Shown piece after piece: positions 3,614 to 46,954 of a DNA stretch of 64,000 nucleotides. The DNA is taken from the NCBI GenBank assembly GCA_043742785.1, contig JAYTXU010000063.1, positions 7,997 to 71,996 on the forward strand, given 5' to 3'. A model generated the notes under the pieces. The model worked only from the letters and a program-made list of their open reading frames with translations. It was not told the DNA's origin and did not search any database. Within the stretch, counting starts at the first letter, position 1; each line of letters starts with the position of its first letter. Source of the stretch: Candidatus Omnitrophota bacterium (GTDB lineage Bacteria > Omnitrophota > Gorgyraeia > Zapsychrales > Fredricksoniimonadaceae). The position numbers were made by a program, and so were the translations under genes.

Positions 3614-3665
3614 TAATGTAGGGGTCCGAGCATACTCGGCCCGTACTCAAGAGAGGAAAAGTAAA

Positions 3666-4454: not shown

Positions 4455-4485
4455 AATGAATAATTAGTGCCTGTCACTATTTATA

Positions 4486-4719
4486 TTAGATGGAGATTTT
4501 CTTATTGAGAAAATTAAGAACAGGACTTGTATTTAGCCATAAGTACATTGTTTTATTAACGCGATTGGCTAGATAGGTTTTAGAATAATTGTTAATCCAT
4601 TCCCTAGAAGCTCTTTCATAACCAATATCTTGACCTTCTTTTTCGCTTTGGCACCATTTGTAATTATTAATCTCTTTAATAATTTCTTGATCTTTGAGTA
4701 ATTCAGTAATCCCTGCCAT
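4486..4719 (-). CDS. Small hypothetical protein (77 aa)
   Basis: Strong SD (AAGGAGA) 7 nt upstream of ATG; starts 11 nt after the stop of the upstream minus-strand methyltransferase gene; no recognisable family. Confidence 0.4.
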   Translation of the reverse strand: MAGITELLKDQEIIKEINNYKWCQSEKEGQDIGYERASREWINNYSKTYLANRVNKTMYLWLNTSPVLNFLNKKISI

Positions 4720-5481: not shown

Positions 5482-5949
5482 TTAGGAGACGGCTTTGATA
5501 AGCATTTCGAGGGCTTTATTAACTGCTTGGGTTTTAATCGAGATTCTGGAACCTTTAAAATGACATTGGGACAGAATTGTTTTCTGTTTGTTGGCTAAGG
5601 CGATAAATACAAGTCCTACTGGTTTATTCTTTGAGCCGCCTGTTGGGCCTGCAATTCCGGTAATTCCAATTCCGAAGTCTGTGTTGAGGATTTTTCGGAC
5701 ATTTTGCGCCATTAATTTGGCGACAGGAAGGCTAACAGCTCCATGTTTCTTGATAATGTTAGGAGAAATTTTTAGCAGATTGACTTTAGCTTTATTATCG
5801 TAGGCAATAATCCCAAGCCAAAAGAAGAGGGAAGAGCCCGGAATGTTGGTGAAACGATTAGCCAATAGTCCTCCCGTACAGGATTCGGCTAAAGCGATTG
5901 TTTGCCCTTTATTTAGAAGAATTTTAGATAGTTTTTGTTCAGCACGCAT
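5482..5949 (-). CDS. pncC: CinA C-terminal domain protein (nicotinamide-nucleotide amidohydrolase PncC-like)
   Basis: CinA_C motif IALAESCTGGLLANRFTNIPGSS, 155 aa. Confidence 0.65.
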   Translation of the reverse strand: MRAEQKLSKILLNKGQTIALAESCTGGLLANRFTNIPGSSLFFWLGIIAYDNKAKVNLLKISPNIIKKHGAVSLPVAKLMAQNVRKILNTDFGIGITGIAGPTGGSKNKPVGLVFIALANKQKTILSQCHFKGSRISIKTQAVNKALEMLIKAVS

Positions 5950-6007
5950 GTTATTTGCTCTAGGTTAGTTATGAAAATTATGGTCATTATAGGTCGGGGG
6001 AAATGCG

Positions 6008-6036
6008 TTGACAAGGGCTATTTTCTGGCATATACT
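6008..6036 (+). promoter_or_regulatory. Sigma70-type promoter of the rib operon: TTGACA (6008-6013), 17-nt spacer, TATACT (6031-6036)
   Basis: Direct read; followed by GGAGGA SD at 6050-6055 and ribBA ATG at 6062. Confidence 0.6.
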
Positions 6037-6061
6037 TTGGTTTTTAATTGGAGGATAAAAC

Positions 6062-7264
6062 ATGTTTAATTCTATTCCCGAAGTTTTAGAAGAACTTAAA
6101 AATGGCCGCATGGTCATTGTTATGGATGATGAAGGTCGTGAAAATGAAGGGGATGTGCTTATTGCAGCAGAGCATATCAATGCAGATGCGATTAATTTTA
6201 TGGCTAAGTACGCTCGTGGCCTTGTTTGTGTGCCTATGGAAGATGCAAGGCTTGCCGAGCTTGATTTACATCCTATGAAGGAAGATGTAAATTCCAAGCA
6301 TCAAAAATGCAACACTGCTTGGACGGTGACCGTAGATTCCGCTTTTGGTGTGACAACCGGTATTTCTGCAGCAGATCGTGCAAAAACCGTTGAAGATTTG
6401 ATTAATCCAAAATCCAAGCCTTCGGATTTTGTGACTCCAGGACATTTATTTCCCTTAAGAGCTCGTCGTGGTGGTGTGTTAGTACGCGCTGGTCATACGG
6501 AAGCATCGGTCGATTTAATGAAATTAGCTGGCCTTTATCCAGCAGGGGTTATCTGTGAAATCATGAATGAAGACGGCACCATGGCTCGTACGAATGATTT
6601 GATTGCCTTTTCTCAAACACATAAAATAAAAATTTGTACAATCGATAGTTTGATTGAATATCGCCGTAAAACTGAGCAGTTAATAGAACGCGTGGCTGAG
6701 TCAGAATTGCCGACTGAGTTTGGTGATTTTCATATGGTGGTTTATGAATCTAAGATTGATGGGGCTGTTCATTTAGCTTTAGTAAAGGGTAAGATTGATG
6801 GGACAACTCCTATATTAGTTCGTGCGCAGTCCGAATGCTTAACAGGAGATGTTTTTGGTTCTCAGCGTTGTGATTGCAATGCTCAGTTAAAAGCCGCGAT
6901 GAAAGGTATTCAAGAGGCTGGTTCTGGTGTTTTGTTATATATTCGTCAGCAGGAAGGTCGTGGTATTGGCTTGGTCAATAAGATTAAAGCCTATGGATTA
7001 CAAGATGACGGCATGGATACCGTTGAAGCTAATCAGGCTTTAGGTTTTCCTGCTGATTTGCGCGATTATGGTTTAGGTGCCCAAATTTTAGTGGATTTAG
7101 GCGTGAAACAAATTCGATTATTGACTAATAATCCCCGTAAAATCGTGGGTCTTGAAGGTTATGGTCTTTCTGTCGTAGAACGTGTACCCATTAAAATAGC
7201 GCATAATCCTAAAAATGAGAAATACCTTAAGACTAAGAAAGAAAAGTTAGGACATCTTTTATAG
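6062..7264 (+). CDS. ribBA: Bifunctional 3,4-dihydroxy-2-butanone-4-phosphate synthase / GTP cyclohydrolase II
   Basis: DHBP synthase N-half ([20 protein letters not shown]) and GTP cyclohydrolase II C-half ([14 protein letters not shown]; [10 protein letters not shown]). Confidence 0.9.
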
Positions 7265-19438: not shown

Positions 19439-22400
19439 ATGACAAGAGGGAAGATATATAAAAAATCTATCGTTTGGTTAGTCTTAGTTGCATTCTTATT
19501 AAATACATTAATAGGAGCGCAGCCTGTACAAGCTGATGTTCCTTTCCTGCCTGCCCCTGGTCAATTAGTTCCATTAACAGCATCATTTTCTTCACCCATG
19601 ATTTGTGGCCTTAAATTCTTTAAGGACAATCCTTTTAAATTTAATTTTGTCATGACTCAAGGAGATCAAGCCTCTGGTGAAAACTCTTTTAATAGAAAAG
19701 TTTTCTTGAAAGAAGAAGCCAGTAGGCTTGTTAAATATTTCTTAGCTTCTTTAGCAATTCCTGAGAAAGACATGTGGGTTAACTTATCACCCTATGATTC
19801 TAATCGTATTATTCCACAAGAATTTGGAATTACGGAAATGGGAAAAGATATGTTAGCTCAAGATTATTTATTAAAGCAGGTAGCTTCTTCTGTGATGTAT
19901 CCGGAAGGAAGTGTGGGCAAGGAATTTTGGAGCAAGATTTACAGGGAAGCTTATAAACGTTTTGGAACAACTAATATTCCCGTTGCCGCCTTTAACAAGG
20001 TTTGGATTATTCCGGGTCAAGCAACTGTCTATGAGGATGCTATTGATAATACAGCGGTGATCACAGAGAGTAAGCTTAAGGTCATGCTTGAAGAAGACTA
20101 TCTGGCGCTTAGTAAATCAACCATTAAGGATCATATAGAAAAAAGCTCAGATGCTAATAGACAATTATCTAATGAATTAATTCGTGAGATAATTCTTCCT
20201 TTGATTGAGAAAGAGGTTAATGAGGGGAAGAATTTTGCAACATTGAGGCAAGTTTATAACTCGTTAATTTTGGCATTTTGGTTTAAAAATAAATTAAAGG
20301 AAGGGTTATTAGCAAAAGGATATTTTGGTCAGAAGAAAGTCAATGGCGTTGATGTAAATGATAAGAATATTGACCAGGAGATCTATAAGCAGTATTTAAA
20401 ATCTTATAAAAAAGGCGTTTATAACTATATCAAAGAGGAATTAACTCCTACCAATGAAGTGGTCCCAAGAAAATATTTTTCTGGAGGGGTTATCTTTGGA
20501 GATTATATCGAAAAAAGTTTTGCAATGATTTCTGGAAAAGAAGCTGCAAAGGCTGCTAGTGCCGTCTTACAGAATGGGGTTGTTACCTTTGAGGCGGGGG
20601 TTGAAGCAATTGTAGGAGATAAAACTAGATTAGAGTCATCAACTATTGGAGGGTTAAGAGAAAGTGGGCTAGTTCAAGATGGCGATACTGTTATAAGAAT
20701 TAAACTTAATGGAGTACAGAAATATAACGAAAAAGTAAGAAAATCTCTGATAGAAAGAATTATCGTTCTTAAGAAGGTATTTGGTTTGTATGTTAGACCA
20801 TTTAAAAGAATACTGCCTGCAATCACAGTGGGAGTTTTTCTTTTGGCGGCTGCTAATTCAGCTTCTGCTAAGGGCTCTGAAGATTTAATGCAGCACGGTT
20901 CTAAGAAAGCAGAAATCAAACAGGTGGTCGCAAGCTCTATCGATATTCAAATACAAAAGCTTAGTGAGAAAATAGGTGCTGATCAAAATGCAGTGGACAA
21001 TATGAGTGCTAAAGGCGGAACCTTAATGATGAATTTTGATAAGGTCCAAAAGCTCAAAGCACAAATCAAGATAGAAAAAGAACAATTGAAAGAGATTCAG
21101 GGAGCAAAGCCTAAGGGTTCTGTTGCTCCTCAAGAGATTTTACCAGTAAAAAATGTGCAGCCAGTTTCAGTAGATACTCATATGGGGTCTGTATCCATAG
21201 CTACCCCAAGCTCTGTAGATGTTCCTGGCTCGGTAGTTCCAACAGTAGTGGTTCCTGTGGATCATGATTCCAATTTAAATGTTCAACCTCAAAGAACTGC
21301 GCCAACAACTACAGTTGCAACGATTACACCGACTTCCACAGGCGATACTCCTGGACTTATTAAAGCACCTGGTAATCAAATTCAGCCCAAGGTTCTTTCA
21401 GGGGATGCTCTTGATCACAATAATCTTTTACCTGATCAGGGAGCGGCACCTACTATTGATACTCAGCACGGCGCAGCCGCAGGGCCTGGAGCGCCGCCAC
21501 CGGATCAACTAGATCAAGGGCTTAATTTAAATACTCAAGTTTCAGGAGCGCCGCCAGCAGCTGTTCAAGTCGCAACAGTTACATCGGGGATTTCAACAGG
21601 GAGTACTAATATGTATTCATCCCAATTGGATGAAGAAGCAGCGGTTAAGCAAGCTAATCTTTTAGAAGAACAAGTATTGTTAAGCCAGCTTCAGAAATCT
21701 TCTGCAGATCAGGATGCTTTAAAGTTAAAAATAGCTGAAGATATGCAGTTGATTCAAAATTATCATCTAGCACTTCCTAATTACAAACCAGTTCCTTTGC
21801 CATACCAAAAAGCGGGGATGACGCCGCCCATTGCTTCCTTTACTCCGGATAATGTCAGCATTGCCTTGCTGGATTATAAGATTAATCAGACATTAAGAAC
21901 AATCAAGAAGCCTATTAAGAATAATCCCTTTGCTCATGGTGCTTTATCGATGAATAATAATGCGCCTTTTGCAAGCGTGCCGGTTGTATCGGTTGGGGTT
22001 GGAACAAGTTTTAGCATTGTCCCTGATGTGCCTTTTGCTGGTTTGATTAATTTGACCCAAATAGTTGGAGGGCTTCCTCAACTTGGTCAGCAAGGCGTTA
22101 TGAGTCAGGTGTTGGGGCCTGCAGTGGCTGTTGATATTCTAGCTAATTTAAGAAATTATGTGGTAATGCATCCGACCAAGGGACAGGATGTTCGTTATGA
22201 TGCACGTATGACTCCATTTAAAGGGGTTGTTGAATCACTAACAGTGCATGTGACTCCAGCTGTTTCTTTTGACCAAGAAGGGCATCGAGTTGAAAAGAAT
22301 CTTTATCGTGTAGGGATTGTTAAAACCTTAGGTGCCGTAGCAGGAAAGGTGGATTCCCTTTTAGGAGATAAAGGACTCTTTGGGCATAGCAGCGATCACT

Positions 22401-25400
22401 TTATTTTCCAAAATCTTGGTTACCAGATAAAGGTGGATGATTATCACCAGGCGTTTACCTATCAGGCGGCTGTTAATCAGGATACCAATACAAGCTATAT
22501 CAATGCCTACAATATCGAAGATTCAACGACCCGCTACAGAGAAAATACTCATCACGGTTGGGATCTTGTTGATTCGTCTACTCCGTTAGATTCTCACTTG
22601 GATTATTATAGCGCCACTGTTCATGGTTTTATTCTACATGCCGATTCAACAACTGGAACAATGACAGGCCAGGGAGATGTTTTTACCTCTTCAACCTTTA
22701 TTACCGATGCTTTTGCTAAGCAAATAGCCCAGCAAGACGGGCAGACTATTGTCGGAAGATCTTATCTGAGTACTAATTCAGTTTTAGTAGAACCTATTTC
22801 TTCTTTGAAGGATCTTAATTTAGAAAAACAGTTATCAAAGGGTGTGGATAAGAATGGTCATCTTATTTGGGGAGTATTAAGAAATCATTTGGGACATATT
22901 GTTAAATTAATTATTGATCCGCGTGAACTTAACGATACAAGTTCTTTGACTGATGATAGCGGGAACTCAGTTAGATTTATTCCTGGCAAAGCTTATAAAG
23001 CCTCTTCAACCACGGGAGAGATTGGTAGTACTATTCGGGATTATACCATTGATGAGTTTAGGATTGTTGGTGAAGTTAAAGGGATGTTCAAGAAAAATAC
23101 GGTTGCAGATAAATACGGCCATTATGATCTATCTGAAAGACCGCAATTACCAGAATTACCTTCAGAGCTGAAATCTTTAGTTTCTGGAAACGGCTTGATT
23201 TTAGAATCCTCTGTGTCATTAAAAGCCATTTATCAGACAGCAAGGAATTATTATGGGGTTGTGTATTTTGCAGATGGAAGAGTGCCCGCTGTCCTTACAG
23301 GTTTAAAGAATGTTAAAACGATTGGATCCCTGGATGAAAAAAACGGGGTGACCCGATTGCCTAACGGATTATATACTCTTTCAAGATTTAAAAAGAATTT
23401 GGATGGCAATGCCCTTGTTCTTTTAGATGGTAAGAAGCAGGTTATAGCCGTTGTGGATGCATCTGATAAATTAAAACAGGAACGCATTAAAAATCTTCAT
23501 GGAGAAAATAAACGTATTGATGATCACAAGGTTACTTTAACAACTTTAAAGGATGGAGGGATTGAAGCAGAAGACCACAGAGTGCTTGATCCTGAGAGCG
23601 GCAAGCCTCAGTTTACAATTTTTACGAAAGGCAATACGTTTACACCAGAGCAGACAGCATTTAATGCAGCAAACCCTCAACAGATTCATTTAGAAAGAGA
23701 ATTAGCGGATTTGGCTATTAAAGGCCAGGCCATCACCATTCCTGTTGAAGGATCTAATAGACAAAGATGGATTATTCTAGAAAAAGCACCTACTTCTCAA
23801 TTAAAAAGATTAGAACAATCAAGTCAACAGGTGGCACCTGTTCGAAATATAAAGGTAGAAACCTTAACAGGGCCGGATGGAAAGGTTTTTCATGGGGTGA
23901 CCATTGATACGGAAATGTTTGGTGCTGATGATATTCAAAAGTTAAACAGTCTTGGCGCGACTGCCGTTCGTACTTATTATCCAATTTCTAAAAAACTTGC
24001 TGTTCTGCTTGCCACTCAAACTCAAGTCAAAACGATTATTGTAGGCATTCCCTTAAATTCAAAAGCTTATAATCCGGAGAATTTGTCCAATTTTTGGGGA
24101 GATACTGTGGGGGATCCAGATGAAAGAGTTTCTTTAGAAAATAGCAGCAAGTATATATCCTATCTTAAGCAGCTGGCAGCTACTCTTGATGGCAATGCAA
24201 AAATTGTTGTTGATTTAGGTAATGAACTGAATTTACATCCGGATTGGATTGGAGTTACGAATAATGGGTCAGACCTAGGCAGATTTTTTAGAAAGGTAGA
24301 CAAGCATGCTACGGATATAAAAGCAGTATTAGGAGATAGTGTTACAACGTCCTTCACCTTGGGAGATAATCCAATAGATTTTGTAACAGCATTGACAAAT
24401 GCACCTAATGTTCAATATTGGGGGGTTAACTCTTATCGGGGTATAGATGGTTTAGAAAATGATTGGATGAAGGCGACTAAAGAAGCAGGTGTTTTTAGGC
24501 CATTCTATGTGGCTGAAACAGGAAATAATTCTAATGCAGGAGAAGCAGTGCAGGCGGAAGCAGATGTTCACGCTTGGAAAACAGCGGAAGGCAAGATGGG
24601 TGTCAGTGTTCTATTAATGACTCTTCAAGATAATCCTAAAAAGATGGCCAATAATAAACAGGAAAACTTTGGTTTGTATGACCAATATGGGAAGCCAAAA
24701 GCAGGTGTCAGAAAGATTACCGAAGCTTGGGGAGAAGCAGCGACTTCGACTACAGCACCAATTTTGTTCGATGATACTCTAACCGGGGTTAATGAACACT
24801 ATGCCCTTGTGCGTCTTCGTTCAAATCATCCTGCCGGAACTACTGCAGAAGAGGTTGTTAAACAATTAAAAACTGAACGCGTTCGCGTTAGTGATCTAGA
24901 TCGATTAGCTCCAGCTCTTGGAAAATTAGGCGTTGAAATATTGAAGATTGATTCTCAAGGCAATACAGTTGGACGATATGTCAAGATGTTTGGGGATGGT
25001 TATCAGTTGTGGGAAAATGTTTCAATTGAAGCCAATATGAATAAATATTTTCAGATTAATCGCAATGATGGGAAAGGTTCTGAATATGTTTCATTAGATG
25101 ATTTAAAGTCTCCTTCAACTCAGGAAGCTATTCGTCAGGTTGCTGACGAAGTTACCATGATGGATATGAATCAGCATGTGATGGCACGGGTATTTTTAAA
25201 TAAAAATTTTAATGGCAGCCGTATTGAAGTCTTACAGGACAATCATACATCTTCCATTTTTGAATTGGCTTCATTTAGTCCAACAGATTTATCTGGTCCT
25301 GTTGCTAAAACAGTTTCTATTAATCCTAAAGATTCCAAGGATGGCTTCTTGCATGTCATCACCACTGATTTACGCCAAGTTAATCAAGGCGTGCAGGTGG

Positions 25401-28400
25401 AAGATGTTTACAAGCCGGTTACCGGGGGGAAACCAGTTTTGCTTTACAGTGACCGATTCTTACAAAACAATCGCATTTATTTTAAAGATGGCCATGAGTA
25501 TTATTCCGTTTTAATTGATGCTTCCCATAAGGATGGGCAAACCGTGACGATTGACGGACAGACGACAGAGAATGTGACAGGAATCTTTGATTTTAATAAG
25601 GACTCCAATAGCGGGTATCACGTCAATCTTCGTAATCTGGATAAGAATGGCGGTTTTGCTCCTATTCGTTTTACAAAATTCAAGGATGGACAGATTAATG
25701 TTGATCAAACAGGATTTGTTAAGATTCGACAAGGAATGGATCGCAAAGCTATTTTAGATAATGTTGTTAGATCGTCTGTTCTTAATATGACAGACGTATA
25801 CAGATATAGACCAGATGGACAAATTGATACAAGAGAAGTTAGTTTTTTAAATAATGGACAATGGCAATTAAATTGGACTTTAAAAGGAGCTGATATTGCT
25901 GTTCAACCTGTCCTGGTTAGTCAATTATCTAGCAATCAAGTGATTGCAGAGGCTTTTGCTAAATATAAGATTGATAAAGATACCATCTTAATTGAAACCA
26001 TCAAAACAGATACCGATGGTGTTGTCAGTAAGGATTATCGTATCTTAGGAGATATCTTAGAGAAGAAAATCATTTCTGTGATCGAGCAGGGTGGGGGAGT
26101 CATCAAGACTATTGTGGGGTTAAATTTTGACAACACCACAGGCGAGCAGATACTGTCCTATACCTTAAGTTCTGATGGGCAGGTTCAATCTTTAAGTAGA
26201 ACGGTTCCCAATGAATTATCCTATCAGCAGCTTCTTCCTCAAGGAGTCGAGACAACCTATGCACAGTTTATGGAGAAACATTTAAATGTTCAGGGAGCTA
26301 ATTATTGGAATGAGTTGGAACAAAGAGGTGTCTCAAGAAGTTTTGTACCAGTGGTGGTTGAAGAAATTCCTTTTCTGGTTCAAACAGATAAACCTGGTGC
26401 TAATAGTTTTAAATCTATTGAACCCAAGATACGTCCTCTCGTTGAAGCTTATACAAAGGCCAGTGCTCAAGACCGTCCTGCTCTATTAAAACAAATTTCA
26501 GATACCGTTCGCCAGTATCATCAAGAGAGTAATACTGCGCATTATACGCAAGAGCAAGGGCAGCCGACCTATCATTATTTATCACCTCCTAATGATAGTC
26601 GAGGACGTGATTATATTACCAAGACAAGCGATGGGGATATTTCGCTCAATATTTGGCCACTTGAAGGTAAGGGAAATTTTCCAGCTAATATTTTGCCGGC
26701 TAGTATTGTTGTTAATCAGTCGACTGGCGAATTGCAGAGAACAATGGTTTTTGATCATCATGAAAAGCTACAGTTTCAGAATTTCCAAAATGAGCCCTAT
26801 GAACTGGGCGTGAATGTTTATAAGGTTTCGGATGATTTAAGTTTAAAGGAGGCTACATTTACGAGTTTAGGAGATCCCATTTCTAAAACCACTCTTTATC
26901 AGCGTAATCGTGTTGCTAATGGAATATTTGGTGTACAGACAAGAGGGGAAGAAACAATTGCTTTTGATCCGTTATTCCCGTACTCGCTTCCTTTGGCTGG
27001 GACCTTAGATGAAGATGGTCGTTTGACTAAGGCAACTTTGCATTTGGAATTTAGTGTTGAGAATGGGCATCAGAAAATTGTGGAAACATCCTTGGTCAAT
27101 GAGCCAACAGCTCCAGGGGATTTTAGAGTTAAAACGCAGACCATTGTGGATGGTAAGCCAATTTCTGGGACTCTGCATGAAGAAGGAACACTTTTGGGTT
27201 ATAGGAAAAGCATGGAGGCTAATTGGAAAGTATTTGCCGTTTATCCTGCTTTAATCTTAGGGTTAATTATCAGCGGAGATTTACTTAAGAAAATTAGGTT
27301 TAATAGAATTAAAAAGGCATTGGCTGAGGAGGCTACTAATGCAGCCTTAGAAGAAACATCAGAGCCTCCTAAAGAAAGAGAAATTGTTTATCCTTCTTGG
27401 CAGGAGTATGGATTTAGTAAAGGTGCTTTGGCCGTTGCTGCTAGAAGATACGAAGGAACAATTGTTCCCATGTTAAAGAAAGAATCAATAGAGGATGTTT
27501 TAAAAGAATATTTCCGTGGTTATCAAATATGGCGTAAACAGGTCATGGGTATTGAAGAGCCATTTATCCCCACTATTGAAGATTTATGGGTGATGTTTTT
27601 AAGAGATGCGGATAATGATATTTTGAATGCAGATGTGCCAGACGGCCTTAATTATTTGATGCATAAAGCTGTGGAAGCTAGAAAGATTAACCCAGTGGCT
27701 GCAGATATAGGGGGTTTTATAAGAAAGGAATACACGCGCTGGCATAATATTATTGAAATTCAGCAAACAACCTTTCAGGGTTTATCAGGGGGGAAGATGA
27801 AAAACGTGGTCCCCTATGATTATTATTTTACCGTCGAAGATCTTAATGAAATGTTTCGTACTAGGAAGAATGTTGAATGGTACGATGATTTAGGGTATTC
27901 CTTGGATCGTAAAGCAGATAGAAGAAGCTCTATCTACAATGATTTTATAGCCAGTTTGAGGGAAAAGGTTAAGGCTGCTAAAGCAGGAATTGAAGCCATG
28001 GCTGATAGTGTGGGTGGCAATGTATTTAGAATGAAGAGAAAGGTGGCAGATGTTGCAGAGTATCAGGAGTATGTTCAATTTTTTACTAGAGTTCAAAAAG
28101 GTGAGTATACCGTATCAGATAATTTTACCTCCACAGAAATATCTGCAGAACAAGCTAATCTTTTAATTAATAACAAACCATTTATTAGAAAAACATTTGC
28201 GGAATCAGGATCATGGGTTGGGAAAATGCCTTTGCCGTTGCGTATGATCAAACCATTAGCCCAGTTTATCCGAAATAGTTATAACCAGTTAACCTATCCA
28301 ATTATATTAACTTCGACCGTGGGAGCTTATGTGGCAGCTTATGACGGCATCATAGGCTGGGGGACTGCTACCCTTGCGGCAGCTATTAGTCTTGTTGTTA

Positions 28401-31400
28401 TTAAAGGAATTTATTATCCATTAAGTTATTTATTAGACCGCAAGGTTAATGTTAAAAGTTTTGGAAAGCCAACTGATTTCGGGGCTGGTTATAAGAAAGA
28501 AAAATTAACGAGTGCTCAGAAATGGTATCGAACAGGTTTTTGGGCATCCGTGATATCGGCTAAGGTAGCCTGGGATATTTTCCTTATTCATCATTTTCTT
28601 ATTCCTCATCAGGAAACAATCGGCGCAAGTTATTATCCGGTCATTTTTGGTCATGAAATCCCCGTTAATATGAATTTATTATTGATGGGAATGCAGTGGT
28701 CAACGAGCGCTCTATTTCTTTATGTCAGTAATTTTGCGGCTAATTATTTGGTTAAACCATTTTTTACTTATATTCATGGTTCCTTAAGAGGATTAGGAAC
28801 AATTAAAGAATCTAAGCAAATTCTCGCCCTTCAAAAAGAAGGTATTTTGGATCGTTTGATTGAACAGAAGCTTCTTGTCAAAGGAGGAGCTGGATTAACG
28901 GATGAACAGCGCCTTGCTGCCAGAAGAGCTATTATCAAGTTAGCCTTTGATCAGCATCGTTATGTCAGAGACGAAGTCAGCGATGAGGAATACAAAATAG
29001 CGATTGAGGAAGGACGATTAGACCATATTAAGATTGAAGATGTTCAAAAAAGTGTCACTCAATCGGTGAATGCCTTACTGATGGAAATGCCGCGTATGCC
29101 TCATCCGGAAGACAATACACCAATCACAGTCTTGAGCCCTGTGTTTGGGGAAGATATTATTTATGCCTATAACAACAGTGTTCTTCCAACAACCTTGGAT
29201 ATGATGCTTAACACCGGCTATACAAATCTTAATTTTATTATTTCAAAAGCCCCGCAGCGTTGGAAGAATCTTATTGAACGTGTCAGAAGAGATAAGATAG
29301 GGACAGAAGAAGAATGGCTACGCATGGAAGCTTTATTGGATCAAAATGGATTGCTGGGAGAAATCAGTGAAGATTTAAAAATGCAGATTCGTCTTTGGGC
29401 TTCCTATGAAGGGCAGCCCTTTGCACGCACATTAGATGGACTTATGAATATTGTCAGATGGCATAAGCTTTATTTAAAGCTTTCTTTTCCAACCTGGAGT
29501 GAAGAACAGATTCGAGAGAGGACCAATTATGATGTCCAAATCCTTTGGGCTTATCAGATTTGGGGAGATGTTTTAAATGCAACTGATGCAAAACCAGAGC
29601 TGCAGTTAAAGAAAAAAGACACCCTTTATTTATTAAAGAAATACTACGATGAATTAGGGTATTTAGTTGAGATTGCCTCTTTACAGATTAGAAACGGAGT
29701 CAGTGTCAAGGTCTTGTCTCGATATAATCCAACAACAGAGCAAATTGAGGATATTGCAGATATTCCCAACACTGAGAATAAAGCTATCACACTTGAAGGA
29801 AAACCATCCAATCAAATGCACGCCCAAACCTTTGCTAGAAACAAGTTTCGATTTACTATTGATATGAATCAGGATTTAGACCCGCTTGAAGCGATGAAAA
29901 TTCCTATTATCATTCAAGAGTTTAAAAATAAGAATGTGGCTCTTGTGAATACTCCAGAAATGATTTTTACAGGCAGTTTTACGAAGACCGGTATGTTCCA
30001 TGCAATTTCTGATCGTACCTTTGTTACTTCTGATAAAAGACATATGGGGATTAACACTTCAGCTTCTCATCATGGCCATCCAGATGTGGGGACAGATGTC
30101 TATGATATGGAAGATGGCGGTCTTTCCTCGACTGTTGCTGTTTCTGAGGATTACAAGCGCGGTATTCGATATATGTTAAGAGGAAGAACTATTTTAAACA
30201 GAGAATATATGCAGTGGAAAAAAGCAAGAGAGCTTTCCTGGACAGGAACAGATGGTATTTGGCGCAAATTTTCTATGGGGGCAGCCCAGCTTCTGCTTGG
30301 TCGTTATGCCCACTGGATGAATAAATCCTTTGGACCGGTGGCTGGAGCTGGAGAATTTTATTCGGGGCCTCATTTTTATACTTTAAATACGATTGCAGCT
30401 CTTGGATTTTTTGTGTATACCCTTAATGTCATGATTGGAGGAATTAGTCCATTTACAGCATTTCCAGCGCCCGCTGTAACGACAATTACGAGTGTTTTTT
30501 GGATAGGGCAGGCGCTTACGGTTATTGGATTCACGCAGATGGCCTTGGAATCTGGATTTAAGAAAGCTTTTACTACATTTGCTAAAATAATGCCTTTTAT
30601 GGCGCCTTTTTATATTGCTCATATTTTCACCTATCAGGCAGGGCTTCTCTCTGGGCTGGCTGGTCTGGCTGCTTATGTTGTAACCGGACGCGGATTTAAT
30701 AGAGAGAATTTTGAAGTGGATAAATTATTAAAAGTATATTCTAAATCTCACGTTGCTATTGGGGTGATTGGTCTTACTCTTTCAGGCCTTGCTTATTCTA
30801 TATGGAGAAATGAAACATTTTTATTATCTTCGGTGACTGTGCTTTCCTTTCTTTTTCCTGCGGTGATACCTTTTATTATGAATCCAGGAAATTATCCCAT
30901 TTATGGGGTCACGGTTAGAAGATCCGCAGAACTCTTTAAAAAGAATTCCAGCAGCAGTGTAAAATCTTTAAAGAAAACTATTTGGGATGAAGGATTGGCT
31001 CAAGGAAATATTCGAAAGGCTTTAGTAGATGGTATTCCGGAAGCTGTTTCATTTGGAGTTTGGTTTGGTATCACAGCTCCTGTGGCTCTTCCTGGCTTAG
31101 TAATCAATAAGATTAAAGGTGCGCCAGAATATCCTGGACAAGTTCAAGCAGTTGTTGAAACAAAAGAGGAAGATAAAGCCATGCTGACAGCGCAGCCTAA
31201 AGAAGAGGCTACTTCTGGTGGTATTGATCTTTCTAAGACAACTGTCAATGTTGTTTCTCTCAGAGGGTCTATTCAAATAGCCTTTGATGATTCCGATATG
31301 TTGCATTTGTTGTTGAACGCGGATGGTCTTGCCCCTATAATTTATGATATTAAAATGATGACACCAGCCATGGCTGATCATTTCGTAGGTCTGGATTATT

Positions 31401-31402
31401 GA
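19439..31402 (+). CDS. Giant multidomain protein (3,987 aa): signal peptide, long extracytoplasmic region with clan GH-A glycosidase domain, C-terminal FKS1/callose-synthase-like (GT48) glucan synthase module
   Basis: Uninterrupted 11,964-nt ORF; N-terminal signal-like MTRGKIYKKSIVWLVLVAFLLNTLIGAQPVQA; GH motifs GNELN (E at 24224-26) and VAETG (E at 24515-17); GT48 motif block HHGHPD...GG...SED.......LRG.....EY.Q..K.R.L (30068-30232) and TGRGF (30683-30697); TM clusters at ~aa 2600, 2950-3100, 3620-3870. Confidence 0.85.
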   Translation: MTRGKIYKKSIVWLVLVAFLLNTLIGAQPVQADVPFLPAPGQLVPLTASFSSPMICGLKFFKDNPFKFNFVMTQGDQASGENSFNRKVFLKEEASRLVKYFLASLAIPEKDMWVNLSPYDSNRIIPQEFGITEMGKDMLAQDYLLKQVASSVMYPEGSVGKEFWSKIYREAYKRFGTTNIPVAAFNKVWIIPGQATVYEDAIDNTAVITESKLKVMLEEDYLALSKSTIKDHIEKSSDANRQLSNELIREIILPLIEKEVNEGKNFATLRQVYNSLILAFWFKNKLKEGLLAKGYFGQKKVNGVDVNDKNIDQEIYKQYLKSYKKGVYNYIKEELTPTNEVVPRKYFSGGVIFGDYIEKSFAMISGKEAAKAASAVLQNGVVTFEAGVEAIVGDKTRLESSTIGGLRESGLVQDGDTVIRIKLNGVQKYNEKVRKSLIERIIVLKKVFGLYVRPFKRILPAITVGVFLLAAANSASAKGSEDLMQHGSKKAEIKQVVASSIDIQIQKLSEKIGADQNAVDNMSAKGGTLMMNFDKVQKLKAQIKIEKEQLKEIQGAKPKGSVAPQEILPVKNVQPVSVDTHMGSVSIATPSSVDVPGSVVPTVVVPVDHDSNLNVQPQRTAPTTTVATITPTSTGDTPGLIKAPGNQIQPKVLSGDALDHNNLLPDQGAAPTIDTQHGAAAGPGAPPPDQLDQGLNLNTQVSGAPPAAVQVATVTSGISTGSTNMYSSQLDEEAAVKQANLLEEQVLLSQLQKSSADQDALKLKIAEDMQLIQNYHLALPNYKPVPLPYQKAGMTPPIASFTPDNVSIALLDYKINQTLRTIKKPIKNNPFAHGALSMNNNAPFASVPVVSVGVGTSFSIVPDVPFAGLINLTQIVGGLPQLGQQGVMSQVLGPAVAVDILANLRNYVVMHPTKGQDVRYDARMTPFKGVVESLTVHVTPAVSFDQEGHRVEKNLYRVGIVKTLGAVAGKVDSLLGDKGLFGHSSDHFIFQNLGYQIKVDDYHQAFTYQAAVNQDTNTSYINAYNIEDSTTRYRENTHHGWDLVDSSTPLDSHLDYYSATVHGFILHADSTTGTMTGQGDVFTSSTFITDAFAKQIAQQDGQTIVGRSYLSTNSVLVEPISSLKDLNLEKQLSKGVDKNGHLIWGVLRNHLGHIVKLIIDPRELNDTSSLTDDSGNSVRFIPGKAYKASSTTGEIGSTIRDYTIDEFRIVGEVKGMFKKNTVADKYGHYDLSERPQLPELPSELKSLVSGNGLILESSVSLKAIYQTARNYYGVVYFADGRVPAVLTGLKNVKTIGSLDEKNGVTRLPNGLYTLSRFKKNLDGNALVLLDGKKQVIAVVDASDKLKQERIKNLHGENKRIDDHKVTLTTLKDGGIEAEDHRVLDPESGKPQFTIFTKGNTFTPEQTAFNAANPQQIHLERELADLAIKGQAITIPVEGSNRQRWIILEKAPTSQLKRLEQSSQQVAPVRNIKVETLTGPDGKVFHGVTIDTEMFGADDIQKLNSLGATAVRTYYPISKKLAVLLATQTQVKTIIVGIPLNSKAYNPENLSNFWGDTVGDPDERVSLENSSKYISYLKQLAATLDGNAKIVVDLGNELNLHPDWIGVTNNGSDLGRFFRKVDKHATDIKAVLGDSVTTSFTLGDNPIDFVTALTNAPNVQYWGVNSYRGIDGLENDWMKATKEAGVFRPFYVAETGNNSNAGEAVQAEADVHAWKTAEGKMGVSVLLMTLQDNPKKMANNKQENFGLYDQYGKPKAGVRKITEAWGEAATSTTAPILFDDTLTGVNEHYALVRLRSNHPAGTTAEEVVKQLKTERVRVSDLDRLAPALGKLGVEILKIDSQGNTVGRYVKMFGDGYQLWENVSIEANMNKYFQINRNDGKGSEYVSLDDLKSPSTQEAIRQVADEVTMMDMNQHVMARVFLNKNFNGSRIEVLQDNHTSSIFELASFSPTDLSGPVAKTVSINPKDSKDGFLHVITTDLRQVNQGVQVEDVYKPVTGGKPVLLYSDRFLQNNRIYFKDGHEYYSVLIDASHKDGQTVTIDGQTTENVTGIFDFNKDSNSGYHVNLRNLDKNGGFAPIRFTKFKDGQINVDQTGFVKIRQGMDRKAILDNVVRSSVLNMTDVYRYRPDGQIDTREVSFLNNGQWQLNWTLKGADIAVQPVLVSQLSSNQVIAEAFAKYKIDKDTILIETIKTDTDGVVSKDYRILGDILEKKIISVIEQGGGVIKTIVGLNFDNTTGEQILSYTLSSDGQVQSLSRTVPNELSYQQLLPQGVETTYAQFMEKHLNVQGANYWNELEQRGVSRSFVPVVVEEIPFLVQTDKPGANSFKSIEPKIRPLVEAYTKASAQDRPALLKQISDTVRQYHQESNTAHYTQEQGQPTYHYLSPPNDSRGRDYITKTSDGDISLNIWPLEGKGNFPANILPASIVVNQSTGELQRTMVFDHHEKLQFQNFQNEPYELGVNVYKVSDDLSLKEATFTSLGDPISKTTLYQRNRVANGIFGVQTRGEETIAFDPLFPYSLPLAGTLDEDGRLTKATLHLEFSVENGHQKIVETSLVNEPTAPGDFRVKTQTIVDGKPISGTLHEEGTLLGYRKSMEANWKVFAVYPALILGLIISGDLLKKIRFNRIKKALAEEATNAALEETSEPPKEREIVYPSWQEYGFSKGALAVAARRYEGTIVPMLKKESIEDVLKEYFRGYQIWRKQVMGIEEPFIPTIEDLWVMFLRDADNDILNADVPDGLNYLMHKAVEARKINPVAADIGGFIRKEYTRWHNIIEIQQTTFQGLSGGKMKNVVPYDYYFTVEDLNEMFRTRKNVEWYDDLGYSLDRKADRRSSIYNDFIASLREKVKAAKAGIEAMADSVGGNVFRMKRKVADVAEYQEYVQFFTRVQKGEYTVSDNFTSTEISAEQANLLINNKPFIRKTFAESGSWVGKMPLPLRMIKPLAQFIRNSYNQLTYPIILTSTVGAYVAAYDGIIGWGTATLAAAISLVVIKGIYYPLSYLLDRKVNVKSFGKPTDFGAGYKKEKLTSAQKWYRTGFWASVISAKVAWDIFLIHHFLIPHQETIGASYYPVIFGHEIPVNMNLLLMGMQWSTSALFLYVSNFAANYLVKPFFTYIHGSLRGLGTIKESKQILALQKEGILDRLIEQKLLVKGGAGLTDEQRLAARRAIIKLAFDQHRYVRDEVSDEEYKIAIEEGRLDHIKIEDVQKSVTQSVNALLMEMPRMPHPEDNTPITVLSPVFGEDIIYAYNNSVLPTTLDMMLNTGYTNLNFIISKAPQRWKNLIERVRRDKIGTEEEWLRMEALLDQNGLLGEISEDLKMQIRLWASYEGQPFARTLDGLMNIVRWHKLYLKLSFPTWSEEQIRERTNYDVQILWAYQIWGDVLNATDAKPELQLKKKDTLYLLKKYYDELGYLVEIASLQIRNGVSVKVLSRYNPTTEQIEDIADIPNTENKAITLEGKPSNQMHAQTFARNKFRFTIDMNQDLDPLEAMKIPIIIQEFKNKNVALVNTPEMIFTGSFTKTGMFHAISDRTFVTSDKRHMGINTSASHHGHPDVGTDVYDMEDGGLSSTVAVSEDYKRGIRYMLRGRTILNREYMQWKKARELSWTGTDGIWRKFSMGAAQLLLGRYAHWMNKSFGPVAGAGEFYSGPHFYTLNTIAALGFFVYTLNVMIGGISPFTAFPAPAVTTITSVFWIGQALTVIGFTQMALESGFKKAFTTFAKIMPFMAPFYIAHIFTYQAGLLSGLAGLAAYVVTGRGFNRENFEVDKLLKVYSKSHVAIGVIGLTLSGLAYSIWRNETFLLSSVTVLSFLFPAVIPFIMNPGNYPIYGVTVRRSAELFKKNSSSSVKSLKKTIWDEGLAQGNIRKALVDGIPEAVSFGVWFGITAPVALPGLVINKIKGAPEYPGQVQAVVETKEEDKAMLTAQPKEEATSGGIDLSKTTVNVVSLRGSIQIAFDDSDMLHLLLNADGLAPIIYDIKMMTPAMADHFVGLDY
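23843..24745 (+). other. Domain within giant protein: clan GH-A (beta/alpha)8 retaining glycoside hydrolase-like (GH5/GH17/GH72/GH128-type motifs)
   Basis: beta1 HGVTID; GATAVRTYY; acid/base-like VVDLGNELNLH; nucleophile-like FYVAETGNN ~97 residues later. Confidence 0.55.
27230..31399 (+). other. Module within giant protein: FKS1-like (GT48) beta-1,3-glucan synthase (TM1, cytoplasmic N-domain, ~5 TMs, catalytic domain, C-terminal TM bundle)
   Basis: Motif-by-motif match to fungal Fks1 with identical spacings for HPD-9-GG, ED-8-LRG, LRG-5-EY and EY.Q..K.R.L, with TGRGF ~170 aa downstream; NP-containing helix in the C-terminal TM bundle. Confidence 0.7.
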
Positions 31403-43003: not shown

Positions 43004-43004
43004 G

Positions 43005-46953: not shown

Positions 46954-46954
46954 C

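What the first reader, a model, noticed from the sequence alone, without database searches (positions are those of the whole stretch)
23843..24745. Clan GH-A retaining glycosidase-like TIM barrel inside the giant protein (candidate beta-glucanase/transglycosylase)
A ~300-aa segment shows the GH-A pattern. It has a beta1 strand HGVTID, then GATAVRTYY. It has an acid/base-type NE in VVDLGNELNLH (E ~aa 1596). A nucleophile-type E in FYVAETGNN lies ~97 residues later (E ~aa 1693). The spacing and context resemble GH5/GH17/GH72/GH128 enzymes. The motifs are closest in flavour to GH72 (GNEV ... SEYGCN), the fungal beta-1,3-glucanosyltransferases that partner Fks1.
Basis: inference. Interest (0 to 1): 0.6.

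Follow-up and report, generated by a model that had tools for sequence, protein, structure and literature searches.

The report
Glycosidase barrel in giant glucan synthase
A 312-residue cassette inside a 3,987-residue bacterial membrane protein is a real sugar-cutting (clan GH-A) barrel with its catalytic residues intact; it is probably outside the membrane, on the same chain as a fungal-type beta-1,3-glucan synthase, so it may trim or remodel the glucan that chain makes.

Summary
Window 23804-24739 (aa 1456-1767 of the ORF 19439-31402) is a discrete cassette.

- **Fold:** AlphaFold2 models it as a (beta/alpha)8 barrel (pLDDT 92.6, pTM 0.90).
- **Catalytic residues:** N1595-E1596 follow beta4 and E1693 ends beta7. 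N, E, Y1666 and E are 4 of only 6 invariant columns in 35 homologues.
- **Closest relatives:** profile and fold searches hit only clan GH-A. The order is GH158 endo-beta-1,3-glucanases (E 3e-15; Foldseek 2e-12), then GH2, GH17 and GH5, with GH72 far behind (E 0.02-0.04). No Pfam or NCBIfam model reaches its threshold on the window copy, so I treat it as an unclassified GH-A lineage near GH158/GH2.
- **Rarity:** 38 clusters among 1.84 billion representatives, mostly in giant proteins.
- **Link to GT48:** the domain recurs with GT48 synthases in at least two architectures. It is cleanly absent from three orthologues, so it is accessory.
- **Location:** positive-inside charge patterns in three architectures place it outside the cytoplasm.

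Best reading (about 0.45): a tethered retaining glycanase or transglycosylase that processes the extruded beta-1,3-glucan, comparable to NdvB (GH17-GT2). Substrate and activity are untested.

The parts
19439..31402 (+). Giant ORF (3987 aa) that hosts the domain. It is identical to database protein P0001.
   Evidence: Orthologues P0002-P0009 are collinear over most of its length.
23804..24739 (+). GH-A (beta/alpha)8 cassette, aa 1456-1767. This is the feature under review.
   Evidence: The limits come from a clean indel. In P0004, query aa 1455 and aa 1768 abut at subject 1921/1922, and P0005 and P0008 are similar. AF2 pLDDT 92.6, pTM 0.90. Foldseek top hits are all GH-A. PDB profile hit to GH158 at E 2.9e-15.
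24221..24226 (+). N1595-E1596, the predicted Asn plus general acid/base Glu at the C-terminal end of beta4.
   Evidence: Invariant in 35 homologues. Lies immediately after strand 133-140 of the model. Aligns with the 'GNE' of GH158(Pro), whose Glu143 is the assigned acid/base.
24434..24436 (+). Y1666, the conserved Tyr after beta6 (GxNxY motif).
   Evidence: Invariant. Follows strand 205-210. Aligns with VGVNAY of GH158(Pro).
24515..24517 (+). E1693, the predicted catalytic nucleophile on beta7.
   Evidence: Invariant. Lies inside strand 234-239. Aligns with the 'TEFG' Glu of GH158(Pro), chain index 221 = Glu229, the nucleophile.
27230..27316 (+). Transmembrane helix 'TM-a' (aa 2598-2616) plus the following basic cluster KKIRFNRIKK (aa 2617-2626). 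This is the topology marker that puts everything upstream, including the GH cassette, on the non-cytoplasmic side.
   Evidence: Kyte-Doolittle peak of 2.07. Both the helix and the basic cluster directly after it are conserved in all eight orthologues. The orientation follows from the positive-inside rule and is an inference.
27287..28288 (+). All-helical soluble region (aa 2617-2950) between TM-a and the next TM bundle. It occupies the position of the Fks1 cytosolic accessory domain.
   Evidence: AF2 on alignment A3 is only moderate (pLDDT 63.5). Its best Foldseek hit is Fks1 8wla_B, but weakly (E 0.12, TMq 0.27). The sequence profile finds nothing in the PDB. The Fks1 domain order is taken from PMC12715860.
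29045..30898 (+). GT48 (Fks1/callose-synthase type) 1,3-beta-glucan synthase domain with its downstream TM helices, aa 3203-3820.
   Evidence: Pfam PF02364, E 1.2e-39, 136.7 bits against a cut-off of 37.2. phmmer to Fks1 7xe4 at E 1.1e-14, with GKxxNQxHA, DxNQD and (N/S)ED motifs aligned.
19439..20866 (+). N-terminal module shared by Omnitrophota-type giant proteins. It has two signal-peptide-like hydrophobic segments (aa 10-32 and aa 454-476, the latter ending in ...NSASA|KG).
   Evidence: 1926 proteins reached E <= 1e-3 with the aa 1-2600 query. Most of the 120 listed match only about 13% of the query at 42-60% identity, and for the few proteins mapped that stretch is the N-terminal ~390 aa. 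Hydropathy.

Best explanation
The segment is a catalytically competent, retaining clan GH-A glycoside hydrolase or transglycosylase domain. It consists of the TIM barrel alone, with no accessory Ig or CBM domain. It is built as a removable cassette into the large extracytoplasmic region of a bacterial (Omnitrophota-type) giant membrane protein whose C-terminal part is a GT48 (Fks1-type) beta-1,3-glucan synthase.

Proposed mechanism:
1. The cytoplasmic GT48 domain polymerises UDP-glucose and threads the beta-1,3-glucan through its TM channel.
2. The tethered barrel, held near the outer face of the same membrane, binds the emerging or deposited chain.
3. E1693 attacks the anomeric carbon to give a glycosyl-enzyme intermediate, while E1596 acts as acid/base.
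4. The intermediate is resolved either by water or by another glucan hydroxyl. Water gives endo-cleavage: chain release, length control or clearing of stalled chains. A glucan hydroxyl gives transglycosylation: branching, cross-linking or cyclisation.

Shown: the fold, the conserved catalytic signature, the cassette nature, and the recurrent fusion with GT48.
Inferred: the outside location, beta-1,3-glucan as substrate, action on the cis product, and the balance between hydrolysis and transfer.
For: Fold and catalytic machinery:
- AF2 pLDDT 92.6, with the eight strands in order.
- N1595, E1596, Y1666 and E1693 are invariant in 35 homologues.
- They align with the assigned catalytic residues of GH158(Pro). 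The homologous residues of BuGH158 (N136, E137, E220) abolish activity when mutated.
- All strong sequence and fold hits are GH-A.

Substrate hint:
- The nearest solved relatives are GH158 endo-beta-1,3-glucanases.
- GH17 beta-1,3-glucanases are also hit (6fcg, 3ur7, 1ghs).

Link to the synthase:
- The same chain carries GT48.
- The GH family is fused to GT48 in a second architecture, C-terminal to the synthase, in P0130 and in metagenome locus L004.
- It also occurs in fragment P0138, whose end matches TM-a and the start of the following region of these giants.

Location:
- TM-a is followed by a conserved basic cluster in all orthologues.
- In P0121/L001 and in L004 the barrel is a loop between two TM helices, with the basic clusters on the distal sides.
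- Small family members carry signal peptides, a lipoprotein-like start or a T9SS tail.

Precedent: the pseudomonad NdvB/'Orphan' protein, a periplasmic GH17 fused to a cytoplasmic GT2 beta-1,3-glucan synthase (PMC10237404).
Against: - No biochemical data exist.
- The cassette is cleanly missing from three orthologues (P0004, P0005, P0008) nested among carriers. The synthase evidently works without it.
- The same GH family occurs in giants with no detectable GT48: P0121, P0122 (with S8 peptidase and HEAT repeats), P0128, P0134 and P0135. It also occurs in small secreted proteins.
- Only 2 of 5 GH158(Pro) sugar-binding residues have aromatic counterparts (Trp77 to Tyr, Tyr291 to Phe/Trp). Trp236 and Glu285 have none, and Phe278 is Met (my mapping of the alignment onto).
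- The GH158 Ig-like domain that shapes the cleft is absent.
- Distant relatives look GH2-like, and GH2 is an exo-glycosidase family.
- The topology rests on hydropathy and the positive-inside rule. The two N-terminal signal-like segments are hard to reconcile with a simple model.
Confidence: 0.45

Rival explanations
1. The barrel is an active extracellular GH-A glycosidase, but its target is a foreign glycan (prey/host envelope or environmental polysaccharide). On this view it is one of the many effector-type domains strung on Omnitrophota giant proteins, and its co-occurrence with GT48 is incidental domain shuffling.
For: - The family occurs in giants without detectable GT48 and alongside unrelated domains: S8 peptidase, HEAT, PRTase, HAD and Hint.
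- It also occurs in small secreted or T9SS proteins.
- It was lost repeatedly from GT48 orthologues.
- The literature proposes that Omnitrophota giant proteins and flanking 'GH2 catalytic-domain' enzymes degrade prey cell walls.
Against: - GT48 and this rare GH family (38 clusters in 1.84e9 representatives) are fused in at least two different domain orders and in several lineages.
- The nearest characterised relatives cut beta-1,3-glucan, which is the only known GT48 product.
- In L004 the barrel is a TM-flanked loop about 200 residues after the aligned GT48 core, separated from it by further predicted TM helices, so it is tethered at the membrane rather than on a long extended stalk.
Confidence: 0.3
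2. The barrel is cytoplasmic and acts on the inside, for example on a primer, on UDP-sugar-derived oligosaccharides or on intracellular glucan. The N-terminal signal anchor and the second hydrophobic segment (aa 454-476) would return the chain to the cytoplasm.
For: - A simple reading gives: segment 10-32 N-in/C-out, segment 454-476 out-to-in, leaving aa 477-2593 inside.
- Many domains carried by sister giants are typically cytoplasmic enzymes such as kinases, radical SAM enzymes and methyltransferases.
Against: - This reading would put the conserved KKIRFNRIKK-type cluster after TM-a outside the cell, against the positive-inside rule, in all eight orthologues.
- It would also leave the region at the position of the Fks1 cytosolic accessory domain outside.
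- Segment 454-476 itself looks like an in-to-out signal peptide (RPFKR, then a hydrophobic core, then SASA).
- In two other architectures the barrel is flanked by TM helices with the basic residues on the far sides.
- Small homologues have secretion signals.
Confidence: 0.1
3. The barrel is a catalytically dead carbohydrate-binding or purely structural module.
For: - The window copy is too divergent for any Pfam or NCBIfam model.
- Several GH158 substrate-binding residues are not conserved.
- The cassette is dispensable in orthologues.
Against: The only invariant positions across 35 divergent copies are precisely the catalytic Asn-Glu, Tyr and Glu, plus G and Q next to the nucleophile. Selection on exactly these residues is the signature of an active enzyme.
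Confidence: 0.07
4. It is a bona fide GH72 (Gas/Gel/Phr-type) beta-1,3-glucanosyltransferase, a bacterial counterpart of the fungal partner of Fks1.
For: - 8 of 35 family members give weak Pfam Glyco_hydro_72 matches (best E 1.1e-6). The one member inspected individually, P0154, scored 25.4 bits against a cut-off of 25.9.
- Gas-type structures appear at E 0.016-0.04 in the profile search.
Against: - GH158, GH2, GH17 and GH5 all score better, by 2 to 13 orders of magnitude.
- No GH72 structure is among the 50 best Foldseek hits.
- The window copy has no PF03198 hit even at E <= 10.
- There is no Cys-rich or CBM43 appendage.
Confidence: 0.03

Closest known systems
GH158 endo-beta-1,3-glucanases (BuGH158, PDB 6PAL; GH158(Pro), PDB 9ORO/9P25)
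   Same: - Best sequence-profile hit (E 2.9e-15 and 1.1e-13) and best Foldseek hit (E 2.4e-12, TMq 0.60).
- Clan GH-A barrel.
- The GNE acid/base, GxNxY and xEFG/xETG nucleophile motifs align.
- Retaining mechanism shown for GH158.
- An aromatic residue is kept at the -2 subsite position (Trp77 to Tyr1513) and at the -1 position (Tyr291 to Phe/Trp).
   Different: - Only about 16% identity in the Foldseek alignment.
- The window sequence alone hits no PDB chain significantly.
- It lacks the C-terminal Ig-like domain that helps shape the GH158 cleft. The cassette is the barrel only.
- Trp236 (+1 subsite) and Glu285 (O4/O6 of the -1 sugar) have no counterpart.
- It is embedded in a giant membrane protein rather than being a soluble PUL-encoded enzyme.
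GH2-type catalytic TIM barrel (Pfam PF02836 Glyco_hydro_2_C; beta-glucuronidases and beta-galactosidases; PDB 9FZ9 'GH2 catalytic domain-containing protein')
   Same: - 14 of 35 family members match PF02836, some above its gathering score (38.4 and 34.4 bits against 21).
- GH2 structures fill most of the Foldseek list.
- 9FZ9 scores E 1.3e-12.
   Different: - The window copy itself does not match PF02836.
- The N-terminal sugar-binding and Ig-like domains that define GH2 architecture are absent.
- Characterised GH2 enzymes are mostly exo-acting on galactosides, glucuronides or mannosides.
NdvB / pseudomonad 'Orphan' cyclic beta-1,3-glucan synthase (periplasmic GH17 domain fused through TM helices to a cytoplasmic GT2 synthase)
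   Same: The logic is the same: one polypeptide combines a cytoplasmic processive beta-glucan synthase with an extracytoplasmic clan GH-A barrel that is proposed to cut and transglycosylate the emerging beta-1,3-glucan (PMC10237404). A proteobacterial GH17 structure (6fcg) is also hit by the family profile (E 3e-7).
   Different: - The synthase here is GT48 (Fks1 type), not GT2.
- The barrel is not GH17; the matches to GH17 cover only beta6-beta8.
- The barrel lies roughly 830 residues from the nearest TM helix, inside a ~2100-aa ectodomain, rather than directly on the TM bundle. In L004 and P0121 it is TM-flanked.
- The cassette is optional among orthologues.
Fungal Fks1 (GT48) working with wall-remodelling GH-A transglycosylases (Gas/Gel GH72, Bgl2 GH17)
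   Same: A GT48 synthase is paired with an extracellular retaining GH-A enzyme. The GT48 core motifs are shared with Fks1.
   Different: - In fungi the partners are separate, GPI-anchored or secreted proteins of families GH72 and GH17. Here the partner is fused and belongs to a different GH-A lineage.
- The bacterial protein has no detectable FKS1_dom1, and the region upstream of the GT core is not alignable with Fks1.
Accessory glycanases of bacterial exopolysaccharide synthases (BcsZ GH8 with BcsA; PslG with Psl). Stated from general knowledge.
   Same: These are periplasmic hydrolases specific for the polymer made by the co-encoded synthase. They are non-essential but modulate chain release and quality. 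PslG (4zn2) is among the Foldseek hits (rank 49).
   Different: They are separate polypeptides encoded in an operon, not a cassette in the synthase chain. No glucan-related genes flank the giant gene here.

Membership tests
Clan GH-A | (beta/alpha)8 TIM-barrel fold | tested here: met
   AF2 pLDDT 92.6, pTM 0.90, with eight beta strands alternating with helices. All 50 listed Foldseek hits are GH-A families: GH158, GH2, GH17, GH113 and PslG.
Clan GH-A | Asn-Glu (general acid/base) at the C-terminal end of strand beta4 | tested here: met
   N1595-E1596 lie directly after strand 133-140 of the model. Invariant in 35 sequences. Aligned with the GNE of GH158(Pro), Glu143.
Clan GH-A | Nucleophile Glu at the C-terminal end of strand beta7 | tested here: met
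   E1693 lies within strand 234-239. Invariant. Aligned with Glu229 of GH158(Pro).
Clan GH-A | Carboxylate separation of about 5-5.5 A and a retaining mechanism | not testable with these tools
GH158(Pro) shows 5.0-5.5 A.
GH158 | Significant sequence similarity to the founding members (the CAZy criterion) | tested here: inconclusive
   The family profile hits 9ORO at 2.9e-15 and 6PAL at 1.1e-13. The window sequence alone gives no significant PDB hit. GH2-type chains score nearly as well (1.3e-12). The dbCAN GH158 HMM is not available here.
GH158 | TIM barrel plus a C-terminal eight-stranded Ig-like domain that contributes to the cleft | tested here: not met
   The cassette limits set by the orthologue indel (aa 1456-1767) contain the barrel only. 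The flanks are shared with orthologues that lack the barrel. The GH158 architecture is described.
GH158 | Substrate-binding residues for curved beta-1,3-glucan (Trp77, Phe278, Tyr291, Trp236, Glu285 in GH158(Pro)) | tested here: inconclusive
   From the alignment: Trp77 to Tyr (RTYY), Tyr291 to Phe (window) or Trp (most members), Phe278 to Met, Trp236 in a GH158-specific insertion, Glu285 to Lys/Arg. The alignment is at low identity and therefore uncertain.
GH158 | [quoted passage not shown] | not testable with these tools
   Requires an enzyme assay.
GH72 (Gas/Gel/Phr glucanosyltransferases) | Match to Pfam PF03198 Glyco_hydro_72 above its gathering score | tested here: not met
   No hit for the window copy even at E <= 10. 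The one relative inspected individually, P0154, scored 25.4 bits against a cut-off of 25.9. Eight of 35 members give weak hits.
GH72 (Gas/Gel/Phr glucanosyltransferases) | GH72 structures are the closest solved relatives | tested here: not met
   Gas-type chains score E 0.016-0.04, against 2.9e-15 for GH158. None is in the top 50 Foldseek hits.
GH2 | Match to PF02836 Glyco_hydro_2_C | tested here: inconclusive
   Not matched by the window copy. Matched by 14 of 35 family members, several above the cut-off.
GH2 | N-terminal sugar-binding (jelly-roll) and Ig-like domains preceding the barrel | tested here: not met
   No PF02837 or PF00703 hits anywhere in the 3987-aa protein. The cassette is the barrel only.
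GH17 | Full-length similarity to GH17 glucanases or glucanosyltransferases | tested here: not met
   PDB GH17 hits (6fcg, 3ur7, 4wtp) cover only profile positions ~156-296, i.e. beta6-beta8, at E 3e-7 to 2e-3. There is no Pfam Glyco_hydro_17 hit.
Synthase-glycanase fusion (NdvB-like logic) | Processive beta-glucan synthase and a GH-A barrel on one polypeptide, on opposite sides of the membrane | tested here: inconclusive
   The fusion itself is shown and recurs in P0130, L004 and P0138. The opposite-side topology is inferred only from hydropathy and the positive-inside rule. The structural check of the intervening region was weak.

The most novel reading that the evidence does not exclude
Omnitrophota-type bacteria carry a single-polypeptide 'glucan wall factory': an Fks1-type GT48 beta-1,3-glucan synthase with a built-in extracellular GH-A transglycosylase of a so far unclassified GH family. 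The barrel would branch, cross-link or cyclise the nascent glucan. This would be a prokaryotic functional counterpart, and possibly an evolutionary relative, of the fungal Fks1 plus Gas/Bgl2 wall-building pair. The same cassette may be reused with a second, unrecognised family of membrane synthase-like giants (P0134, P0135, P0010).
Probability: 0.15. Interest if true: 0.8.

Novelty: new variant of a known kind. Interest (0 to 1): 0.55.

Why it matters
GT48 enzymes (fungal Fks1, plant callose synthases) are studied almost entirely in eukaryotes. The Fks1 reviews and structure papers I consulted do not discuss bacterial GT48, and the Omnitrophota papers I read do not mention it.

This domain gives a handle on the product of a bacterial GT48 giant. 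It is a small, soluble barrel that should be expressible, and its specificity can be assayed directly. Natural cassette-minus orthologues provide ready-made controls.

If the barrel acts on the cis product, it adds a second, independent example (after GH17-GT2 NdvB) of bacteria fusing a GH-A transglycosylase to a beta-1,3-glucan synthase. It probably also defines a new CAZy family between GH158 and GH2. It would further give a concrete biochemical function to part of the poorly understood Omnitrophota giant proteins.

If instead it attacks foreign glycans, it is an ordinary, though divergent, secreted glycosidase module.

Tried and rejected
1. Single-sequence searches of the segment. Pfam gave only DUF5722 at E 0.0017, below its cut-off. 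NCBIfam gave nothing. PDB phmmer gave only a spurious cytidine deaminase at E 0.21.
2. The search for homologous proteins with the segment and with alignment A1 returned nothing, although true homologues exist. The word index failed, and two of three searches were lost. Homologues came from the long N-terminal query and the exhaustive HMMER search.
4. Genome-collection scans. A1 was too diverse. A2 found one locus, the 'Elusimicrobia bacterium' MAG that encodes P0121. The window's own genome was not found in that collection, and P0001 is not in the contig index.
5. Topology by homology. A profile of aa 2585-3250 found nothing in the PDB. Its AF2 model was only moderate (pLDDT 63.5), and its best hit, Fks1, was weak (E 0.12). 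The topology therefore rests on charge bias.
6. A possible divergent synthase core in P0134, P0135 and P0010 (GEDSA...RYG motifs). There were no Pfam hits. hhalign against the GT48 region gave Prob 3.7%. The PDB profile search gave nothing. This remains unproven.
7. Cassette mobility. There are no flanking direct or inverted repeats of note and no compositional break at the borders, so there is no sign of recent insertion.
8. Gene neighbourhood. The flanking genes are housekeeping genes or have no Pfam match (ligA, xerC/D-like, CCA/poly(A) polymerase, DHH phosphoesterase, trypsin-like peptidase). There is no glucan operon.
9. GH72 membership was rejected (see the membership table).
Full report
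**1. What is at the coordinates**

The window encodes one uninterrupted ORF at 19439..31402 on the + strand, 3987 aa long. N1595-E1596 lie at nt 24221-24226 and E1693 at nt 24515-24517.

**2. It is a discrete, optional cassette**

A search with the first 2600 aa found the identical database protein (P0001) and eight collinear orthologues, P0002-P0009, all with a C-terminal GT48 domain.

BLAST mapping shows that P0002, P0003, P0006, P0007 and P0009 contain the segment at 30-45% identity. P0004, P0005 and P0008 lack exactly this piece. In P0004, query residues 1455 and 1768 are adjacent (subject 1921/1922). The domain therefore spans aa 1456-1767 (nt 23804-24739).

A neighbour-joining tree of the GT48-containing C-terminal 1300 aa nests the three cassette-minus proteins among carriers. 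That fits repeated clean loss, although the tree has no support values. There are no flanking repeats and no compositional break at the borders.

**3. It is a rare family with a catalytic signature**

An exhaustive phmmer search of 1.84 billion cluster representatives returned only 38 proteins at E <= 1e-3, most of them 1-7 kaa long. I aligned 35 domain copies at 23-45% identity to the window copy (alignment A1).

Only six columns are invariant: N1595, E1596, Y1666, E1693, G1695 and Q1705. R1511 and a few others are at least 90% conserved. Four of the six are the Asn-Glu (beta4), Tyr (beta6) and Glu (beta7) hallmark of clan GH-A. This is strong evidence for an active enzyme and against a decayed or purely structural barrel.

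**4. Fold**

AlphaFold2 on A1 gave mean pLDDT 92.6 and pTM 0.90. In segment numbering the strands are:

| Strand | Residues |
|---|---|
| beta1 | 30-33 |
| beta2 | 54-56 |
| beta3 | 77-81 |
| beta4 | 133-140 |
| beta5 | 181-187 |
| beta6 | 205-210 |
| beta7 | 234-239 |
| beta8 | 269-271 |

These alternate with helices. E141 (= E1596) immediately follows beta4, Y211 follows beta6, and E238 (= E1693) is at the end of beta7.

**5. Which family?**

The window copy alone is invisible to Pfam (only DUF5722 at E 0.0017, below cut-off), to NCBIfam and to PDB phmmer. The family profile ranks PDB chains as follows:

| Family / chain | E-value |
|---|---|
| GH158 9ORO | 2.9e-15 |
| GH158 6PAL | 1.1e-13 |
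| 'GH2 catalytic domain' protein 9FZ9 | 1.3e-12 |
| GH2 glucuronidases | 5e-10 and weaker |
| GH17 6FCG | 3e-7 (beta6-beta8 only) |
| GH5 mannanases | about 5e-4 |
| GH72 Gas-type enzymes | 0.016-0.04 |

In the 9ORO alignment, the family 'GNE' pairs with LGNESE and 'xSEaG' pairs with VTEFG. [quoted passage not shown] In BuGH158 the homologous N136, E137 and E220 are essential.

Among family members, 14 of 35 hit Pfam Glyco_hydro_2_C, several above its gathering score. Eight of 35 touch Glyco_hydro_72, and the one inspected individually (P0154) was just below threshold.

My conclusion is an unclassified GH-A lineage lying between GH158 and GH2-type barrels, and not GH72. It fails two architectural criteria. 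It has neither the Ig-like domain of GH158 nor the N-terminal domains of GH2.

I mapped the five GH158(Pro) sugar-contact residues through the alignment:
- Two aromatic equivalents are present: Trp77 to Tyr1513, and Tyr291 to Phe (window) or Trp (most members).
- One is a hydrophobic substitution: Phe278 to Met.
- Two have no counterpart: Trp236 and Glu285.

Beta-1,3-glucan specificity is therefore plausible but not established.

**6. Context in the protein**

Pfam finds one significant domain in the whole protein, Glucan_synthase/GT48 at aa 3203-3820 (E 1.2e-39). phmmer aligns aa ~3217-3820 with Fks1 residues 830-1493, including the GKxxNQxHA, DxNQD and (N/S)ED motifs.

The first ~390 aa form a module that appears widespread among giant proteins. 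The aa 1-2600 query returned 1926 proteins at E <= 1e-3, and most of those listed match only about 13% of it. Several are named Candidatus Omnitrophica/Omnitrophota, which is my basis for the taxonomic guess.

The flanking genes are housekeeping genes or have no Pfam match.

**7. Which side of the membrane?**

Hydropathy gives strong helices at aa 10-32, 454-476 and 2598-2616 (TM-a). A bundle follows at 2950-3110, then helices after the GT core at 3646-3893.

TM-a is followed directly by KKIRFNRIKK. Every orthologue keeps a similar basic cluster there, such as KRKRLARIK, GKRRLDNVKKK or KERRFKAVQKK. By the positive-inside rule the C-terminal side of TM-a is cytoplasmic. The ~2100 aa before it, including the barrel, are then outside.

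The soluble all-helical region after TM-a (aa 2617-2950) sits where Fks1 has its cytosolic accessory domain, before the TM segments that precede the GT domain. Direct support is weak:
- The sequence profile found no PDB hit.
- The AF2 model reached only pLDDT 63.5.
- The best Foldseek hit was Fks1, but at E 0.12.

Independent support comes from other architectures:
- In P0121 (= locus L001, an 'Elusimicrobia bacterium' MAG) and in metagenome locus L004, the barrel is a loop between two TM helices whose basic clusters lie on the distal sides.
- Small family members start with signal peptides or lipoprotein-like sequences, and one carries a T9SS sorting tail.

One unresolved point remains. The two signal-like segments at the N-terminus cannot both follow the positive-inside rule in a simple model. 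I rate an outside location at about 0.7.

**8. Is it linked to the synthase?**

For a link, the rare GH family is fused to GT48 in at least two domain orders:
- (a) Inside the N-terminal ectodomain, in P0001, P0002, P0003, P0006, P0007 and P0009.
- (b) C-terminal to the GT48 TM region, in P0130 (GH at 4350-4652; GT48 at 1592-2904) and in L004. In L004 the GT48 core maps to 2385-3134 and the GH domain to 3334-3636, with predicted TM helices in between.
- (c) In fragment P0138, a GH copy from the distant, GH2-like branch of the family lies upstream of a segment that matches TM-a and the start of the following region.

Against a link:
- The cassette has been lost in three orthologues.
- Other carriers show no GT48 and have unrelated domains: P0122 with S8 peptidase and HEAT repeats, P0128 with PRTase, P0133 with HAD, and P0150 with Hint.
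- P0134 and P0135 share with P0010 a conserved C-terminal membrane core with GEDSA...RYG motifs that is collinear with the GT48 core. The similarity is not significant.

**9. Mechanism proposed**

- Shown: a GH-A barrel with a conserved catalytic triad of motifs, on the same chain as a GT48 synthase.
- Inferred: the barrel lies outside and acts by the standard double-displacement mechanism, with E1693 as nucleophile and E1596 as acid/base. It acts on the beta-1,3-glucan extruded by the synthase, and either hydrolyses it (release, length control) or transfers it (branching, cross-linking, cyclisation).

The nearest bacterial precedent is NdvB/'Orphan', a periplasmic GH17 barrel fused to a GT2 beta-1,3-glucan synthase. 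The eukaryotic analogy is Fks1 with GH72 and GH17 remodelling enzymes. From general knowledge, non-essential cognate glycanases also accompany many bacterial exopolysaccharide synthases (BcsZ, PslG). That fits the optional nature of the cassette.

The main rival is a prey- or host-directed glycosidase, in line with current ideas about Omnitrophota giant proteins.

**10. Verdict**

- The GH-A interpretation is supported, but the GH72 preference is wrong, because GH158 and GH2 are closest.
- Novelty: a new variant of a known kind. It is an unclassified GH-A lineage used as an optional cassette in bacterial GT48 giants.
- Interest is moderate to good (0.55). The fold itself is ordinary. The pairing with a bacterial Fks1-type synthase is unusual and can be tested directly.

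Noticed in passing
window 29045-30898 (aa 3203-3820 of the giant ORF): A bacterial GT48 (Fks1/callose-synthase type) domain: Pfam PF02364 at E 1.2e-39, and phmmer to Fks1 at E 1e-14 with core motifs aligned. None of the Omnitrophota or Fks1 papers I opened mentions bacterial GT48.
   Followed up: partly
window 19439-20866 (aa 1-476): The N-terminal ~390-aa module appears widespread among giant proteins. The aa 1-2600 query returned 1926 proteins at E <= 1e-3, and most of the 120 listed match only ~13% of it at 42-60% identity, with very different downstream domains. It starts with a signal-peptide-like segment and ends with a second one (RPFKR-ILPAITVGVFLLAAANSASA|KG). Its role (anchoring or export?) and its topology are unclear.
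   Followed up: partly
window 31217-31396 (aa 3927-3986): A C-terminal ~60-aa tail (GGIDLS...LLLNADGLAPIIYDIKMMTP...HFVGLDY) is 58-63% identical to the tails of otherwise unrelated giants P0010 and P0134. It may be a sorting or assembly signal.
   Followed up: no
window 25049-27220 (aa ~1871-2594): The ectodomain stretch downstream of the cassette is about as conserved among orthologues as the GT48 part (it belongs to a single ~60%-identity alignment block with P0002), yet it has no Pfam match. It probably matters for handling the polymer.
   Followed up: no
P0134 aa ~5550-6100; P0135 aa ~5530-6080; P0010 aa ~3600-4150: A second family of giants, two of which carry this GH-A domain, shares a conserved membrane-embedded core. 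Its motifs are NKNG..N, GRNPEI..NP..RIW.S.ND.FP, GEDSA, WGR and E.RYG.NVT. It is collinear with the GT48 core, but the similarity is not significant (hhalign Prob 3.7%; no Pfam or PDB hits). It may be a very divergent synthase.
   Followed up: partly
L004 (Ga0265338_10000469), + frame of nt 10001: An ORF of at least 6869 aa (it runs off the locus start) combines the conserved ectodomain, GT48, and the GH-A barrel as a TM-flanked loop after the synthase, followed by more than 3000 further residues.
   Followed up: partly
L001 (JAAYZZ010000014.1, 'Elusimicrobia bacterium' MAG) = P0121 aa 1689-5596: A 5596-aa protein from a 59% GC MAG labelled Elusimicrobia carries the barrel (38% identity) between two TM helices. 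It has no Pfam hit at all across 3908 aa.
   Followed up: partly
window 20900-21600 (aa ~490-720): A coiled-coil-like stretch is followed by a long Pro/Thr/Val/Gln/Ala-rich low-complexity linker directly after the second hydrophobic segment.
   Followed up: no
window 41294-55542: A run of about twelve same-strand, tightly packed ORFs of 255-569 aa looks like a cell-wall/division (dcw-type) cluster. This was not checked.
   Followed up: no
tool behaviour: The word-indexed protein search returned no hit for the segment or for its 35-sequence alignment. It did not even return the identical protein P0001, which it did find with a longer query.
   Followed up: yes
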